IMG/VR virus record: IMGVR_UViG_3300007513_000009
DNA from: a virus
Strand: one strand, 5' to 3'
DNA length: 64,000 nt
Positions 2,668-33,801 of the stretch are shown here, piece after piece. Below the pieces are notes generated by a model. The model did no database searches and was not told the DNA's origin. It saw only the letters and a list, made by a program, of their open reading frames with translations. Both the position numbers and the translations under genes were made by a program. Each line of letters starts with the position of its first letter. Position 1 is the stretch's first letter.

Positions 2668-3099
2668 ATGAAAAGGTTATTTTTAATAGTAGGAATGCTA
2701 GTTATTGGTTGTTCAGAAAACCCAATGTATTCTGAATTTGTTGAAGATTGTGAATGTGATTTGAATATTTCAAGCACATTACCATATTCTGATGGGAGTT
2801 ATAAATTAGAGTTTAATGCAGATTTAGCACAAACTTATACGATGTTGGATGCTTCAACTAATTGTGGATGGTCTCAACATCTTTCTTGGCAATCTGATTA
2901 TGAATATAGAATTGAAAATGATTGGGTTAATTTAGTTAATCCATCAAGTATGACAGATGAAAATGGAAATGCTCATGTAATGTTTGCTGCGTGGGAAAAT
3001 TTTATTGACTATACTGTTGCGGTTTATTGTGGATATACTGATGATGATGGACATCATTATATGGATACTTTATATATTGAAATAGTTGATAACGAATAG
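2668..3099 (+). CDS. putative lipoprotein
   Basis: MKRLFLIVGMLVIG-C lipobox-type signal peptide. Confidence 0.65.
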   Translation: MKRLFLIVGMLVIGCSENPMYSEFVEDCECDLNISSTLPYSDGSYKLEFNADLAQTYTMLDASTNCGWSQHLSWQSDYEYRIENDWVNLVNPSSMTDENGNAHVMFAAWENFIDYTVAVYCGYTDDDGHHYMDTLYIEIVDNE

Positions 3100-3109
3100 G
3101 GGATTAGTA

Positions 3110-3349
3110 ATGAAGTATGTTCTTGTTGATAGATTTGATAATATAGTCGATACCAAAGATTTATCATCTGATGTTGGTGTCAAGGGGGCAACAACTTATT
3201 TTGTAAAGAGAAAACAAATTTCATATGAAAATTTTACACAAATATGGAGAGTAATGACAGAAGACAGGTATTATGAAATATCGGAATCTTGTACAAGAAA
3301 ATCATCAGAAGGGGAATTTGGGGATTGGATTGACATAGAAAAATCTTAA
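3110..3349 (+). CDS. hypothetical protein
   Basis: ORF; likely start is the ATG at 3110. Confidence 0.6.
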   Translation: MKYVLVDRFDNIVDTKDLSSDVGVKGATTYFVKRKQISYENFTQIWRVMTEDRYYEISESCTRKSSEGEFGDWIDIEKS

Positions 3350-5361: not shown

Positions 5362-6561
5362 TTGATGGCGTTCAACGATTTTTTTGACGATCCCGATGAG
5401 TTTAATTACGATCGGGAGCGGGATAACTTTATCGATAATATGAATATGTTGAAGGCTATGTCGGTTGAAGAGATTACTTTATATAAAAAGTGGCAAGAGT
5501 TGAACAAAGATGCCTATAAAATGGTAAAGAAGGCAAATAAGTTTTTCAATGTTGGTTATATGTTATGGAGTCCTACAGATATAAACAATAAACAACAGAC
5601 TATTAAAGAGATAGAAGAGTTAGACCCTTATGTGGAATATATTGAGCAGGGAAATGTTAAGTCCACAGATACTTGGGTTTCAGTAAGGAAGTTGATTCAT
5701 AGTATGGAGTTTACTGCTAATCCAGGTAGGAATTTAAAATTCTTTATTAAAGATAGGAATACAGATAAAGTCTTAGGTGTTGTTTGTTTAGGGTCTGATG
5801 TTGTGTCAATTGGTGTTAGAGATAAACATATTGGTTGGACAAAAGAAGATAAGTTGACTGATGGTAAATTGAGGCACACTTCTATTGCTACCACTATATG
5901 TTGTACTCAACCATTAGGTTTTAATTTTTTGGGTGGTAAGTTGGTTGCTGCTATGACAACTAGTTCGGTTATAAGGAATAAATGGGAAGAACTTTATGAT
6001 GAAACTTTAGTAGGCATAACCACTACTGCTCTCTATGGTGTTCATTCAATGTACAATGGCATTCCACATTGGAAAACTCTTGGGGAATCTGTAGGTAGAA
6101 TTTCTTTGAAGCCGGATGATTCAACTTATGAAGTGTGGCATGATTGGTTGAAAGAGAATAAGAGAGATGAGTATTTAGAAAAAACTGTACAAAAAGAGGG
6201 AGTTGCTGGTCCAAGGACTGGGGTGAAGAGTATCATTATTCATATGATGTTTAAGGAATTGGGTATAAGAGCTTCAAATTATGAGCATGGTTTTAAAAGA
6301 GGTGTTTATTATTCAGATATATATGAAAATGGTAAAGAGTTTTTACAGAATGAGATACATGAAGATGAACTTATTATGAAGAAGAAGTTTACTGGTGATG
6401 TTGATTATATAAATAATTGGTGGAAACCTAAGGCTATCAGAAGGTATACTAAGTTATTTGATGAGGGTAGATTAAAACCTGATAGATTATTTTATGCTGA
6501 TGTTGTTGGTAAGACATGGGAACAAACAAAGGCAAAGTATTTAAATGAGGTGGGTAGATAG
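5362..6561 (+). CDS. DUF4338 / DruA-like protein
   Basis: NPGRNLKFFIKD…LGSDV…RDKHIGW…QPLGFNFLGGKLVA…TTTALYG…YNG. Confidence 0.7.
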   Translation: MMAFNDFFDDPDEFNYDRERDNFIDNMNMLKAMSVEEITLYKKWQELNKDAYKMVKKANKFFNVGYMLWSPTDINNKQQTIKEIEELDPYVEYIEQGNVKSTDTWVSVRKLIHSMEFTANPGRNLKFFIKDRNTDKVLGVVCLGSDVVSIGVRDKHIGWTKEDKLTDGKLRHTSIATTICCTQPLGFNFLGGKLVAAMTTSSVIRNKWEELYDETLVGITTTALYGVHSMYNGIPHWKTLGESVGRISLKPDDSTYEVWHDWLKENKRDEYLEKTVQKEGVAGPRTGVKSIIIHMMFKELGIRASNYEHGFKRGVYYSDIYENGKEFLQNEIHEDELIMKKKFTGDVDYINNWWKPKAIRRYTKLFDEGRLKPDRLFYADVVGKTWEQTKAKYLNEVGR

Positions 6562-14475: not shown

Positions 14476-14546
14476 GCGGGTGTTGTATAATGGTATTACC
14501 CCAGCCTTCCAAGCTGGTGATGTCGGTCCGATTCCGACCATCCGCT
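14476..14546 (+). tRNA. tRNA-Gly(TCC), near-canonical
   Basis: Acceptor GCGGGTG/CATCCGC, anticodon arm CCAGC-CTTCCAA-GCTGG, T-arm GTCGG-TCCGATT-CCGAC, U73; no encoded CCA. Confidence 0.93.
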
Positions 14547-14574
14547 CAAAAATATATTTGTATTTAGGATTTTT

Positions 14575-31034: not shown

Positions 31035-31608
31035 CCCCAGAGCAACTTTTATAATGGGAATACTTACCGCCTTTCTTGCAGTAGTTTTCTATATGGAAAA
31101 TATGTATGAAGTTCCAATAAGAACTGTAGTTCGTAAAATTGATAATCTAATTGAAGTAGAAAAAACCAAACCAAATTTTTTTGAAGATGCTGATATAATC
31201 AATTCATCATTAAATAAATCCAAACTAAAGCATGTATTGATTTATATTTACGCCTTATGTGATGAATATACTGTACCTTATGATCTGGCTAAATCAGTTA
31301 TAATGACCGAATCAAGTTGGAACCACAAAGCAATATCAAAGAGTGGTGCTATTGGATTAATGCAAATAAAACCTGAAACAGCATATGGTGAATTCAAAAC
31401 ACCTAAAGATGATTTATATGACCCATATGTTAATGTAACTGTTGGTATAATGTATCTATCTGATTTATATCATAACTCTGGCGATGATTGGTATTATGCT
31501 TTAACAAGCTATAGTCATGGTCCAACTATTACAAGAACATATAGTTATGCTTATATATCTGACAATTTTTATGTTAATAAGGTTTTAGGTTTATTTTCTA
31601 ATGACTAA
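31027..31608 (+). CDS. SLT-family lytic transglycosylase with N-terminal TM anchor
   Basis: VIMTESSWN, AISKSGAIGLMQI, LYDPYVNV, ALTSY. Confidence 0.9.
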   Translation: MNNPRATFIMGILTAFLAVVFYMENMYEVPIRTVVRKIDNLIEVEKTKPNFFEDADIINSSLNKSKLKHVLIYIYALCDEYTVPYDLAKSVIMTESSWNHKAISKSGAIGLMQIKPETAYGEFKTPKDDLYDPYVNVTVGIMYLSDLYHNSGDDWYYALTSYSHGPTITRTYSYAYISDNFYVNKVLGLFSND

Positions 31609-32215
31609 TAATTTAGTATTCGGTGGAAATCCATGGTTAATTGAAATAAATTTATCTGAAAAAATCACAGATGAATTTAATAAAATATTAACAATAGAAG
31701 CTATTGAAAGTGATACAAAAGAACGAGAATTATTAGATGCTTTTCATTATAATACACGTATGGTTGATACTGAAAATGTTAAGAAATTATATAAAATATT
31801 TAAAGATGAATGTTATGTATGGTTTAGAAATATAGATAAACATTTACCAAGGCCACAAAAAACCTTAGCTTGTTCTTATATATGTACTGGAAAAAGATAT
31901 GATTCTGTTTGGCATAGACACACATCAAAAACTACTATAAATGGAGTTTATTATACGCAAATACCTGATGATAGTGGTACTTTATCTATTATGGATGACG
32001 ATGGTATGGAGAAAAAGTTTTTACCTTTAGAAAAACATTTATATTTAATGCCTGGTTGGTTTTTACATAAACCAAATCCATGTAATGATCCGGATGTTCC
32101 AAGAGTAGCTATAAATTTAGAATTTTTGTGTTTGACAAGACCAATATTAAAAGAAGAAAATTTTGATATAAAAGAATATGAAAATTTTGATGATGGTGCA
32201 TATATTTTATGGTAA
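31601..32215 (+). CDS. 2OG-Fe(II) oxygenase-like protein
   Basis: WHRH…GVYY…LMPGWFLHKP…RVAINLE. Confidence 0.8.
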   Translation: MTNNLVFGGNPWLIEINLSEKITDEFNKILTIEAIESDTKERELLDAFHYNTRMVDTENVKKLYKIFKDECYVWFRNIDKHLPRPQKTLACSYICTGKRYDSVWHRHTSKTTINGVYYTQIPDDSGTLSIMDDDGMEKKFLPLEKHLYLMPGWFLHKPNPCNDPDVPRVAINLEFLCLTRPILKEENFDIKEYENFDDGAYILW

Positions 32216-32233
32216 TAATTAATAAAAAAAGTC

Positions 32234-32263
32234 TTGACTTGTATAGGTAAAAATACTTATATT
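32234..32263 (+). promoter_or_regulatory. sigma70-like promoter driving the ncRNA-tRNA-mom unit
   Basis: TTGACT-N18-TATATT. Confidence 0.75.
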
Positions 32264-32274
32264 ATGATATAAGA

Positions 32275-32910
32275 TTTGGGTTGATTAGGGTATACCTATC
32301 CATACCACTGCTAGTATCGGTACTGCTGATACTTCTGGCATCAACCCATAGATTTTTGACAATTTGGAAATAGGAAGCGCGAAGGCTTGCTACCTTCGTG
32401 TGGGATTGACAGAATAAACTCTTTTCTAGAGAAGGGAGTTATTGTTTAGTAAGTTCGTCTGTGGTAGACTCTATTGCTCGAATGTGAGTGAAAAGAATCA
32501 ATAACAATTGTGAACCGAAAGATTTGTCTTTAAAGAAAAGAAACTACTTTTCTGGCTCATTGTAAGAGCGTGGTGTAAAAGCTGAGATTCTTACTTTATT
32601 ACCTAATAATCCGTGAGTGATGGATAAGGTGAATTGACAGGAGTTGTGTCCACTTCAACGAAGTTAACCACTTTTAGAAGTAACCAATCATAACCGATTG
32701 GGTTGATTGCATGAGTATTAAAATCATTCAAGATCAAAGGCATTTGTGAGATGTCAGGCTCACATCCCTCCTTAATTTCCAAGTATGAAGATTTCATTAA
32801 CAAACTTCGGTCAGCCGTATTAGGGTTGAAATCTTCATAAAGTTTGGGTGGTTTAACCGATTTTTAGTCTCCACTATTTTATGACTTAAAAAACAACCAA
32901 ATCACCCAGA
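32275..32910 (+). ncRNA. large structured non-coding RNA(s), family unidentified
   Basis: No + strand ORF of 60 aa or more; four consecutive stem-closed domains and about ten internal hairpins; G-U pairs favour the + strand. Confidence 0.7.
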
Positions 32911-32915
32911 TATTT

Positions 32916-32987
32916 GCGGTGGAAGTATCAAAGGTGATACACTTCGTTTCCAACGAAGAAGGTGGGGTTCGATTCCCTAACACCGCT
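32916..32987 (+). tRNA. atypical tRNA-Gly(TCC)
   Basis: GCGGTG/CACCGC acceptor, CTTCG-TTTCCAA-CGAAG anticodon arm, TGGGG-TTCGATT-CCCTA T-arm, U73; G7·A66 mismatch, A8, C14. Confidence 0.85.
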
Positions 32988-33018
32988 CAAAATTTGAACG
33001 ATAACCAAATGGTATGGT

Positions 33019-33801
33019 ATGGAAGAAAAATATGTAGATAAATCAAAAGTATATTTGCAACAAATACCCAAGAAGCAAGCTAAGAATATAATTATTGAAA
33101 AACATTATTCTCATAAATCTTCTTCATGTAGATATGCATTAGGAATCTTTTATAAAGATGATTCTCCACATCCATTTTTTGAAAATGAATCTAAAGAAAC
33201 ATTGATAGGTTGTATGACTCTAGGTTTTCCAGTTGGTAGAAGAGTGCTAGGTTCTATCTTTAGTGAAGACATAGGATTAGAGACAACAAATCTATTAGAG
33301 TTAACAAGACTTTATATTGATGATGGTTATGGTAAAAATATAGAATCATTTGTATTGGGTGCTATGTTTAGTTGGTTGAGGTTAAATGCACCAAACATTA
33401 AAGTATTAATATCATATGCAGATCCTGAACAAAATCATACAGGTAAAATTTATCAAGCAACTAATTGGTTATATCAAGGGTGTGGTGAAATACAGATGGC
33501 GCCAACATTCAGTTTGAGATTAACAGAAGATGGGGAATGGATACATAGCAGAACCGTTTATTCTTTATATGGTTCAGCCGCACCCAAAAATTTAATTAAG
33601 AAAATTGGTAAAACATTTTGGTTGAAGAAGGAAGCAGAGAAACATAGGTATCTTTACTTCATCGGAAACAAAAAAGAAAATAGACTATATAAATCAACAC
33701 TAAAACATAAACTATATCCCTATCCTGCCGACACTATAAACACCGCAGAAATTCAAAAAATAGAAGTTGAAGAATCAAGAGAAGTGGATAAATTTATTTA
33801 A
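33019..33801 (+). CDS. Mom-family (GNAT-fold) DNA adenine modification enzyme
   Basis: IIEKHYSH…LIGCMTLG…LELTRLYI…KNIESFV…LISYADPEQNHTGKIYQATNWLYQG…KHRYLY. Confidence 0.82.
   Translation: MEEKYVDKSKVYLQQIPKKQAKNIIIEKHYSHKSSSCRYALGIFYKDDSPHPFFENESKETLIGCMTLGFPVGRRVLGSIFSEDIGLETTNLLELTRLYIDDGYGKNIESFVLGAMFSWLRLNAPNIKVLISYADPEQNHTGKIYQATNWLYQGCGEIQMAPTFSLRLTEDGEWIHSRTVYSLYGSAAPKNLIKKIGKTFWLKKEAEKHRYLYFIGNKKENRLYKSTLKHKLYPYPADTINTAEIQKIEVEESREVDKFI

What the first reader, a model, noticed from the sequence alone, without database searches (positions are those of the whole stretch)
32275..32910. ~630-nt ornate non-coding RNA transcribed ahead of the tRNA-mom unit
Seen: directly after a promoter, an ORF-free tract folds into four back-to-back closed domains: TGGGTTGAT/ATCAACCCA (32277-32348), TTGGAAAT/ATTTCCAA (32364-32782, enclosing ~400 nt), TATGAAGATTTCA/TGAAATCTTCATA (32784-32839) and TTTGGGTGGTTT/AAATCACCCAGA (32843-32910). 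The large domain holds many hairpins (CGCGAAGG/CCTTCGTG, AACTCTTTTCT/AGAAGGGAGTT, AGAAAAG/CTTTTCT, GCTC/GAGC, ATCCG/TGGAT, CCAATC/GATTGG, TGTGAG/CTCACA) and an inner GGGAT/ATCCC long-range pair. I see no RNase P or tmRNA signatures. Known: large RNAs such as GOLLD and ROOL occur next to phage tRNAs. Inference: a member of such a class or a new one, possibly functionally linked to the tRNA/Mom unit.
Basis: partly seen in the sequence, partly recalled or inferred. Interest (0 to 1): 0.8.

Follow-up and report, generated by a model that had tools for sequence, protein, structure and literature searches.

The report
Two-core manA-type phage RNA gene
The gene-free stretch encodes a real, strongly conserved folded RNA of a marine phage: an enlarged, two-core version of the known "manA" RNA (reported in a 2026 preprint to build RNA-only cages), and here it is made in one piece with a glycine tRNA and the DNA-modifying gene mom.

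Summary
It is not GOLLD, ROOL or a wholly new class. Rfam gives two sub-threshold manA (RF01745) matches: 40.2 bits and 26-29 bits, against a cut-off of 55.2.

I collected over 120 related loci from marine viral contigs. On 52 aligned sequences, 95.9% of cells pair, 77 of 123 pairs show compensatory changes, and two pseudoknots covary.

The topology is nested, not tandem. One outer stem (GGGAU/AUCCC) encloses a first manA-like core. The manA P5 helix is opened, and a second core sits at its tip. Weinberg's 2010 manA alignment already holds members of this group, but only the second core is aligned there.

In 73 of 74 complete loci a conserved 3' hairpin with a T-run ends the unit. In about 40 of 50 relatives the next gene is gp32. 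In this phage and its sister the T-run is missing and tRNA-Gly and mom follow directly.

My best reading is a stand-alone manA-class RNA, freed here by tRNA processing, rather than a switch. Its function is unknown. Transcription could not be tested.

This scan has reported two-core manA-like RNAs in other genomes before.

The parts
32234..32263 (+). Promoter-like site TTGACT-18 nt-TATATT behind an A-tract. The inferred transcript start is near 32270.
   Evidence: Consensus scan. Conserved in sister phage L003/L004. A related A-tract...TTTTGAG...TATAT motif lies upstream of 37 of 52 family RNAs, against 2 of 230 background windows.
32277..32348 (+). 5' hairpin domain (hairpin 1), closed by UGGGUUGAU/AUCAACCCA. 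It lies outside the manA fold.
   Evidence: Minimum-energy fold. About 77% conserved in L003/L004. Other family members carry a shorter, unrelated 5' hairpin at this place.
32364..32371 (+). 5' strand of the closing helix UUGGAAAU. It pairs with 32775-32782. AGGA 32372-75 pairs with UCCU 32769-72.
   Evidence: The helix is kept in relatives with G-C to A-U exchanges, such as UUGAAAAU/AUUUUCAA and UUGGAAU/AUUCCAA.
32377..32401 (+). P0 hairpin (GCGCGAAGG / CCUUCGUGU).
   Evidence: Paired 8 of 8 in the window. 4 of 8 pairs show compensatory changes in 52 sequences. Fully compensated in L003 (ACAGAG/CUCUGU).
32402..32406 (+). 5' strand GGGAU of the outer manA stem. It pairs with AUCCC 32764-32768 and encloses both cores.
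   Evidence: Paired in 100% of 52 sequences. The third pair covaries: 42 G-C and 10 A-U. It corresponds to the outer stem of the Rfam manA model.
32407..32516 (+). Core 1 (D1). It has a P1 hairpin with a GAAUAA internal loop (32409-32445), then a four-way junction closed by GUUC 32453-56 / GAAC 32512-15. The junction hairpins are GUCU/AGAC (loop GUGGU), UUGCUC/GAGUGA and CAAU/AUUG.
   Evidence: Rfam manA match 32380-32563/32596 at 26.4-28.6 bits, E 1e-4 to 9e-7. Helices 4-9 covary. Threaded by hand.
32525..32560 (+). 5' side of the opened P5 helix. P5a is UGUCUUU (32525-31, pairs with 32736-42). P5b is a local hairpin, AGAAAAG/CUUUUCU (32534-53). P5c is GCUCAU (32555-60, pairs with 32711-16).
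   Evidence: The long-range helices P5a and P5c have 6 of 8 and 5 of 7 pairs with compensatory changes. P5b covaries in every member. Window threading.
32562..32708 (+). Core 2 (D2) at the tip of P5. It holds P0' (GUAAGA/UCUUAC 32562-94), P1' (ACC/GGU and AUCCGU/AUGGAU), and a four-way junction closed by AAUUGAC 32632-38 / GUUGAUU 32702-08. The junction hairpins are at 32640-51 (loop GUUGUG), 32652-81 (loop with UUAACCAC) and 32684-701.
   Evidence: Part of the Rfam manA match 32583-32769 at 40.2 bits, E 3e-10 in the whole 131-kb record. Helices 13-23 covary.
32711..32768 (+). 3' side of the fold. It holds P5c 3' (AUGAGU 32711-16), the pseudoknot strand CAUUC 32725-29 (pairs with the P1' loop GAGUG 32615-19), P5a 3' (AAAGGCA 32736-42), the P6 hairpin GUGAG/CUCAC (32746-63) and the outer-stem strand AUCCC (32764-68).
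   Evidence: The pseudoknot forms 6 bp in 40 of 41 distinct relatives and 8 bp in the window, in five covarying versions plus the window's own; mutual-information analysis found it. P6 has 3 of 5 compensated pairs.
32775..32782 (+). 3' strand of the closing helix, AUUUCCAA.
32784..32839 (+). Hairpin 3: a perfect 13-bp stem with a 30-nt loop. It is an insertion peculiar to this phage.
   Evidence: Absent from L003/L004 and all other relatives. Single copy in the phage's own genome. The same element lies just after a tRNA-like gene that I read by eye as tRNA-Cys in two other viral contigs.
32843..32910 (+). Hairpin 4: a conserved 3' module with a 12-bp covarying stem, the conserved loop GAUUUUUAGUCUCCAC...ACUUAAAAA and an inner helix. 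In relatives it is followed by a T-run. Here no T-run follows.
   Evidence: All 8 outer-stem pairs are compensated. More than 120 loci carry the loop word. A T-run follows in 73 of 74 complete loci. The module also occurs alone, with its own promoter-like site.
32916..32988 (+). tRNA-Gly(UCC), starting 5 nt after hairpin 4. I infer that RNase P cleavage at its 5' end sets the 3' end of the non-coding RNA.
   Evidence: ARAGORN and Rfam tRNA at 42.1 bits. Conserved in L003/L004 with a compensated T-stem change. Processing is inferred, not shown.
33019..33801 (+). mom gene (Mom family). It is the neighbour on the same inferred transcript and is not part of the RNA.
   Evidence: Pfam PF25680, E 5.7e-44.

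Best explanation
The tract is a gene for a non-coding RNA of the manA family in an enlarged, two-core form.

Shown:
- One promoter-like site is followed by a 5' hairpin and then a roughly 420-nt closed fold (32364-32782).
- In that fold the manA outer stem GGGAU/AUCCC encloses a first manA core (P1 plus a four-way junction).
- The manA P5 helix is opened. It carries a complete second core (P0', P1', junction) at its tip.
- P6 and a pseudoknot between the second core's P1 loop and the 3' side of P5 complete the fold.
- A separate conserved hairpin module (32843-32910) follows. In relatives it carries a T-run.

Inferred:
- The RNA acts as a molecule of its own, not as a switch for the next gene.
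- In most relatives it ends at hairpin 4 and its T-run, ahead of a separately promoted gp32.
- In this phage the T-run has been lost, so transcription runs on into tRNA-Gly and mom. RNase P cleavage at the tRNA 5' end (5 nt after hairpin 4) would then release the RNA.

Most speculative: like the canonical manA RNAs studied by cryo-EM in a 2026 preprint, it may associate with copies of itself through loop-loop contacts, with the two cores acting as a covalently joined pair. What that does for the phage is unknown.
For: Family identity:
- Two manA matches in the window, at 40.2 and 26.4-28.6 bits, E 3e-10 and 9e-7 in the 131-kb record.
- The sister phage scores 70.8 bits at the same place.
- 46 of 46 relatives tested match manA at 47.9-73.4 bits, and 37 exceed the cut-off. 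Nine also give a second, upstream match at 28-40 bits.

Structure:
- 52-sequence alignment A3: 95.9% of cells paired, against 81.7% shuffled and about 44% with partners slid.
- 77 of 123 pairs are compensated. The covariation score is 0.449 against 0.181, with 0 of 500 shuffles as high.

Nested topology:
- The long-range helices covary: P5a in 6 of 8 pairs, P5c in 5 of 7, and the outer stem shows a G-C to A-U exchange.
- The window threads onto this fold at -111.4 kcal/mol, against -115.7 for the free minimum.
- Two pseudoknots covary.

Not coding: no 3-base periodicity, 0.09x the median against 218x for gp32.

Stand-alone unit:
- A T-run follows hairpin 4 in 73 of 74 loci.
- A promoter-like motif lies upstream of the RNA in 37 of 52 loci. 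A related one lies between hairpin 4 and the next gene in at least 12 of 52. Background is 2 of 230.
- No covarying antiterminator pairing was found: 6.25 within a sequence against 6.19 across sequences, while the stem control gives 8.02 against 5.06.
- Hairpin 4 also occurs without any manA part.
- The downstream genes differ: gp32, a methyltransferase, or tRNA-Gly/mom.

Self-assembly of manA RNAs is reported in bioRxiv 10.64898/2026.07.01.735769.
Against: - No transcript data.
- The window copy scores below the Rfam cut-off and is the most divergent member. MAFFT misplaces several of its helices, so I threaded them by hand.
- The loop-loop pairing P5b/P6 is kept in 33 of 41 relatives but not in the window.
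- The cage evidence is in vitro, from a preprint, on single-core manA RNAs. Nothing here shows that this RNA oligomerises.
- Canonical manA RNAs lie only about 37-59 nt ahead of the next ORF, gp32 most often. That fits a leader role and keeps the cis-regulatory reading alive.
- The fixed position ahead of gp32 in about 40 of 50 relatives could reflect regulation and not only gene order.
- The simple sigma-70 scan does not find strong promoters in the one relative scanned, L072.
Confidence: 0.6

Rival explanations
1. A cis-acting leader or riboswitch. The manA-type fold senses a ligand or protein and controls read-through of hairpin 4 (or translation) into the downstream gene. That gene is gp32 in most relatives and tRNA-Gly/mom here.
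For: Weinberg et al. 2010 rated manA a riboswitch candidate in 5' UTRs. Canonical manA starts right after a promoter and ends 37-59 nt before the next ORF, most often gp32. The two-core RNA keeps its place ahead of gp32 in about 40 of 50 loci, with a terminator-like hairpin between them.
Against: No covarying alternative pairing links the fold to the hairpin-4 stem. Hairpin 4 has an invariant loop, which is unusual for an expression platform. It also occurs with its own promoter-like site and no manA part, still about 155 nt ahead of gp32. A promoter-like motif lies between hairpin 4 and the next gene in at least 12 of 52 loci. The downstream genes differ, and this phage's own gp32 has no such RNA upstream. 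No ligand has been reported in the papers I found since the motif's 2010 description.
Confidence: 0.2
2. The RNA is functionally tied to the tRNA-Gly/Mom unit. For example, it could hold or deliver the tRNA that Mom is said to use, as GOLLD sometimes carries tRNAs in its linker.
For: RNA, tRNA-Gly and mom lie head to tail with no T-run or promoter-like site between them. The layout is conserved in L003/L004. GOLLD and ROOL lie near tRNA islands. Among 120 canonical manA loci, 10 have a same-strand tRNA within a few hundred nt, and together these account for all but one of the 12 tRNAs found in 877 kb.
Against: Only this lineage shows the linkage: 2 of 64 other Mom loci and 2 of 52 RNA loci. 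40 relatives have gp32 instead. No complementarity to the tRNA was noticed, though I did not search for it systematically.
Confidence: 0.08
3. Two independent manA RNAs in tandem, like tandem riboswitch aptamers, each closing on itself.
For: Rfam reports two adjacent matches here and in 11 relatives.
Against: The first copy has no 3' outer-stem strand of its own, and the second has no 5' strand. A single GGGAU/AUCCC stem spans both and covaries. The long-range helices P5a and P5c bracket the second core with 11 compensated pairs. In the Rfam alignments of the second match the P5 stem columns are non-pairing.
Confidence: 0.03
4. A member of GOLLD or ROOL, or a class unrelated to any known family.
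For: Its size, its ornate fold, and its place in a phage beside a tRNA.
Against: No match to GOLLD, ROOL, OLE or any other large RNA even at E = 10. There are significant matches to manA instead, and subgroup members sit in the published manA alignment.
Confidence: 0.02

Closest known systems
manA RNA motif (Rfam RF01745; Weinberg et al. 2010, PMC2864571; cryo-EM preprint bioRxiv 10.64898/2026.07.01.735769)
   Same: Shared features:
- an outer stem of the GGGAG/CUCCC type;
- a P1 hairpin with a GAAUAA / UAAGG internal loop;
- a four-way junction whose first loop is GUGGUG-like;
- a P6 hairpin;
- a place at the 5' end of a transcript in marine phages, most often ahead of gp32.

Covariance-model matches are significant. 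Members of this very subgroup are rows of the 2010 alignment.
   Different: - About 420 nt instead of about 190.
- The P5 hairpin is opened, and a second complete P0-P1-junction core sits at its tip.
- It has an extra side hairpin (P5b) whose loop pairs with the P6 loop in most members, and an extra closing helix.
- A conserved 3' hairpin/terminator module follows.
- Scores are 40-73 bits, against 150-197 for canonical cyanophage copies.
- The published alignment treats the first core as unaligned flank.
- The host phages are not T4-like cyanophages. Their nearest cultured gp32 relatives are a Microcystis phage and Flavobacterium phages.
GOLLD and ROOL RNAs (Nature 2025, PMC12286853)
   Same: Large, ornate, phage-encoded RNAs of unknown function that often lie beside tRNA genes. 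They form RNA-only closed assemblies, as reported for manA.
   Different: No sequence or structure-model match, and the secondary structures are unrelated. The tRNA neighbourhood is a lineage-specific accident here.
Tandem riboswitch aptamers (for example the glycine riboswitch)
   Same: Two homologous folded units in one RNA.
   Different: The units here are nested, one inside a helix of the other, not side by side. No expression platform coupled to them was found.

Membership tests
manA RNA (RF01745) | Covariance-model score at or above the gathering cut-off (55.2 bits) | tested here: not met
   The window scores 40.2 bits (32583-32769) and 26.4-28.6 bits (32380-32563/96), though E is 3e-10 and 9e-7. 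Sister phage: 70.8 bits. 37 of 46 relatives exceed the cut-off. So the subgroup is inside the family, and this copy is a divergent member.
manA RNA (RF01745) | Outer closing stem (GGGAG/CUCCC type) around the whole fold | tested here: met
   GGGAU 32402-06 / AUCCC 32764-68. Paired in 52 of 52 sequences, and the third pair covaries G-C to A-U. It encloses two cores instead of one.
manA RNA (RF01745) | P1 hairpin with a conserved GAAUAA ... UAAGG internal loop | tested here: met
   Core 2 has CUAAUAA ... AUAAGGU (alignment). Core 1 has AGAAUAA ... UUAUUGU, a partial match. Both stems covary in relatives.
manA RNA (RF01745) | Four-way junction with three hairpins, the first loop being GUGGUG-like | tested here: met
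   Present twice. Core 1 has loop GUGGU at 32461-65. Core 2 has loop GUUGUG at 32643-48. Helices 7-9 and 19-23 covary.
manA RNA (RF01745) | P5 as a closed long hairpin, followed by the P6 hairpin | tested here: not met
   P6 is present. P5 is not a hairpin: its two strands (P5a, P5c) lie about 150-200 nt apart and bracket core 2. This is the variant feature.
manA RNA (RF01745) | Pseudoknot (marked 'pseudoknot?' in Weinberg 2010, Figure 2) | tested here: inconclusive
   A covarying 6-bp pseudoknot joins the core-2 P1 loop to the 3' side of P5. I could not see the published figure, so I could not check whether this is the same pseudoknot.
manA RNA (RF01745) | Self-assembly into pentamer-based closed oligomers (2026 preprint) | not testable with these tools
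   Known only, in vitro, for single-core RNAs.
GOLLD / ROOL | Match to the family covariance model | tested here: not met
   No match at E up to 10 in 32150-33050, and none at gathering score in the whole window.
Riboswitch with a terminator expression platform | Alternative pairing between the aptamer and the terminator stem | tested here: not met
   Complementarity of the upstream RNA to the hairpin-4 stem is no better within a sequence than between sequences: 6.25 against 6.19, with a positive control of 8.02 against 5.06. Ligand binding cannot be tested here.

The most novel reading that the evidence does not exclude
The two-core manA RNA is a covalently joined double protomer. During infection it would self-assemble, through the covarying loop-loop contacts, into an RNA-only shell or scaffold with a geometry different from the single-core cages. 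In this phage it would be made as one precursor with the glycine tRNA that serves Mom, so that RNA particle and tRNA supply are produced together.
Probability: 0.12. Interest if true: 0.85.

Novelty: new variant of a known kind. Interest (0 to 1): 0.5.

Why it matters
manA has been an orphan RNA since 2010. A 2026 preprint now reports that it builds RNA-only cages in vitro. Three results here bear on that.

- A large subgroup (over 120 marine viral loci) is really a nested two-core RNA of about 420 nt with two covarying pseudoknots. This corrects how the published alignment reads these sequences. It also gives structural biologists a natural "fused dimer" to test for assembly.
- The RNA behaves as a transcription unit of its own, with promoter-like and terminator-like signals. 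That weighs against the long-standing riboswitch label.
- Both single-core and two-core forms sit most often ahead of gp32, which gives a concrete place to look for function.

This window adds a variant in which a tRNA replaces the terminator.

Tried and rejected
- blastn of the region, of the sister locus and of a typical family member against 50,697 phage records found nothing. The family is not detectable by blastn in cultured phages.
- The two nearest cultured gp32 relatives, Microcystis phage Mel-JY01 and a Flavobacterium immuto phage, have no manA match and only about 110 nt ahead of gp32.
- The tandem-copies reading was rejected by the long-range covariation.
- RNAalifold's GAUU/AAUC helix (helix 11: 84% paired, no compensation) was rejected. 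The local P5b hairpin and pseudoknot 1 fit better.
- The 14-base pattern TGGGATTGNNNGAATAA gave mostly chance hits, about 20 true out of 118.
- MAFFT put several window helices out of register. I threaded them by hand and checked the energy.
- The closing helix is A/U-rich, so its within-sequence versus between-sequence test is weak: 8.2 against 7.6.
- The loop pair GUGGUG/ACCA could not be tested for covariation, because both loops are invariant in the sets I collected.
- The minus-strand 66-aa ORF (32603-32803) was dismissed. It spans the insertion that is unique to this phage, and the aligned core shows no codon periodicity.

Full report
**What is in the window**

Between a 2OG-Fe(II)-oxygenase-like ORF (31601-32215) and tRNA-Gly(UCC) (32916-32988) lies about 700 nt with no + strand ORF above 30 aa. 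A Mom-family gene follows at 33019 (PF25680, E 5.7e-44). A promoter-like TTGACT-18-TATATT sits at 32234-32263.

Its energy is -181.4 kcal/mol, z = -4.87, and the + strand folds better than the - strand.

**Which family**

At gathering thresholds Rfam finds only the two tRNAs of the window. A permissive scan of 32150-33050 gives two adjacent matches to one family, manA (RF01745):
- 32583-32769 at 40.2 bits;
- 32380-32563 at 26.4 bits.

Nothing resembles GOLLD, ROOL, OLE, RNase P or tmRNA. In the whole 131-kb viral record these are the only two manA matches, with E 3.4e-10 and 9.4e-7.

manA was described by Weinberg et al. 2010 as a riboswitch candidate of marine metagenomes and T4-like cyanophages.

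**Homologues**

- Anchoring on Mom gave 64 loci. Only the sister phage (L003/L004, Mom 96% identical) has the same layout.
- blastn recognises just the two ends of the tract there. The full alignment nonetheless shows the same architecture with many compensated helices, and Rfam scores its manA part at 70.8 bits.
- Four further records carry the same long RNA away from Mom.
One used the start of core 1, the other the loop of the 3' hairpin.
- After removing chance hits and duplicates I aligned 19 sequences, then 52 (A2, A3).
- Of 46 relatives tested, all match manA at 47.9-73.4 bits, and 37 exceed the cut-off. Nine also give a second, upstream match.
- Canonical cyanophage-type manA RNAs score 150-197 bits and are single in 49 of 50 contigs.

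**Structure**

RNAalifold on 19 sequences predicts 108 pairs, 67 of them compensated.

| Measure on 52 sequences (123 pairs) | Observed | Control |
|---|---|---|
| Cells paired | 95.9% | 81.7% shuffled; about 44% with partners slid |
| Pairs compensated | 77 of 123 | – |
| Covariation score | 0.449 | 0.181; 0 of 500 shuffles as high |

The topology is nested, not tandem:
- A single outer stem, GGGAU/AUCCC, spans everything. Its third pair switches G-C to A-U in 10 sequences.
- After core 1 come two long-range helices: P5a (6 of 8 pairs compensated) and P5c (5 of 7).
- These two helices bracket a complete second core.
- A local hairpin, P5b, branches off between them and covaries in every member.

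This explains the Rfam output. The "second copy" is core 2 plus the 3' strand of P5, P6 and the outer stem. The "first copy" is P0, the outer-stem 5' strand and core 1.

Mutual-information analysis found two further pairings outside the nested structure:
- Pseudoknot 1 joins the core-2 P1 loop to the 3' side of P5. It forms 6 bp in 40 of 41 distinct sequences, in five covarying versions (the window's own, sixth version forms 8 bp).
- A loop-loop pairing joins P5b to P6. It forms 6-7 bp in 33 of 41 sequences.

**The window copy**

It is the most divergent member, and MAFFT slips several helices by a base or two. Threaded by hand, every family helix forms (114 pairs). The constrained energy is -111.4 kcal/mol, against -115.7 for the unconstrained minimum.

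Pseudoknot 1 is kept: GAGUG 32615-19 pairs with CAUUC 32725-29. The P5b/P6 loop pairing is not kept.

Hairpin 3 (32784-32839) is an insertion found in no relative.

**Not coding**

Column variability of the aligned core has no 3-base periodicity: 0.09x the median power, against 218x for the adjacent gp32 genes.

**Context, and whether it is a switch**

- In 73 of 74 complete loci the 3' hairpin (hairpin 4) is followed by a T-run.
- In 40 of about 50 loci the next gene is gp32, the ssDNA-binding protein (PF08804). It starts about 155-170 nt after the hairpin loop.
- An A-tract...TTTTGAG...TATAT motif precedes the RNA in 37 of 52 loci. A related motif lies between hairpin 4 and the next gene in at least 12 of 52. 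Background is 2 of 230.
- The hairpin-4 stem covaries, but the upstream RNA shows no covarying complement to it. There is therefore no sign of an antiterminator.
- Hairpin 4 also occurs with its own promoter-like site and no manA at all, still ahead of gp32.

These points favour a separate RNA gene. They do not exclude a leader role:
- Canonical manA starts right behind a TTGACA-17-TATAAT promoter and ends only 37-59 nt before the next ORF.
- That ORF is most often gp32, in 15 of 101 loci.

**This phage**

The phage's own gp32 lies elsewhere (G000:105546-106076) and has no such RNA upstream. Here and in the sister phage the hairpin-4 T-run is replaced by ...CCCAGAUAUUU, followed at once by tRNA-Gly and then mom.

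I infer, but have not shown, that the three are co-transcribed and that RNase P cleavage at the tRNA 5' end releases the RNA. The linkage is lineage-specific:
- only 2 of 64 other Mom loci have a tRNA in front;
- only the window and L003 among 52 RNA loci have tRNA-Gly behind.

**What is already known**

- The 2010 manA alignment contains members of this very subgroup, for example JCVI_SCAF_1101668008650/791-191. In those rows core 2 is aligned, core 1 is left as 5' flank, and hairpin 4 and gp32 lie in the 3' flank. The family assignment is therefore old. I found the nested two-core reading in no paper.
- GOLLD and ROOL, which also form cages, lie near phage tRNAs.
- This scan has already followed up "two-core manA-like" RNAs in other genomes. 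First readers have also flagged this same family elsewhere. I reached my reading before seeing those notes, and they agree with it.

**Verdict**

This is a real RNA gene and a new structural variant of a known family. Its function is unknown. A stand-alone, possibly self-associating RNA is the most likely mode of action (about 0.6), and a cis-regulatory leader is the main rival (about 0.2).

Noticed in passing
window 32843-32910; L323, L329, L330, L333, L348, L385 (hairpin alone); L335: The 3' hairpin with the invariant loop GAUUUUUAGUUUCCAC...ACUUAAAAA is a module of its own. In at least six contigs it has its own promoter-like site and T-run, with no manA part, about 155 nt ahead of gp32. 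In L335 the manA closing helix is reduced to a plain hairpin in front of it. It matches no Rfam family. It could be a small RNA, or part of a gp32 operator.
   Followed up: partly
window 32784-32839; L426:9500-9600; L427 (minus strand) around 6380-6440: The hairpin-3 insertion recurs, with wobble-compensated stem changes, in two unrelated viral contigs. There it lies directly after a tRNA-like gene that I read by eye as tRNA-Cys(GCA), and before a terminator. It looks like a small portable RNA element.
   Followed up: partly
L076-L195 (canonical manA loci): The commonest gene behind canonical manA is gp32 (15 of 101 loci, about 37 nt downstream). Transaldolase-like, HAD/phosphomannomutase-like and ThyX-like genes come next. 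Of the 12 tRNA genes found in 877 kb of these loci, all but one lie on the same strand within a few hundred nt of manA.
   Followed up: partly
window 32380-32780 versus L003:1930-2310: Between phages whose Mom proteins are 96% identical and whose tRNA-Gly differs at three positions (a compensated T-stem pair and one in the D-loop), the RNA core has diverged so far that blastn finds only its flanks. Either the core evolves very fast or it has been exchanged by recombination.
   Followed up: no
L375:100-640; L381 (oriented) about 2700-3200: A further, more divergent variant of the RNA lies ahead of hairpin 4 and gp32. It gives only a 25-bit manA match or none, and ends ...CACACCCCC. The family is broader than the set I aligned.
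   Followed up: no
window 32916-32988 and 14476-14547: The window carries two tRNA-Gly(UCC) genes. The one beside mom scores much lower (42 against 60 bits). This belongs to the separate finding on tRNA-Gly/Mom.
   Followed up: no
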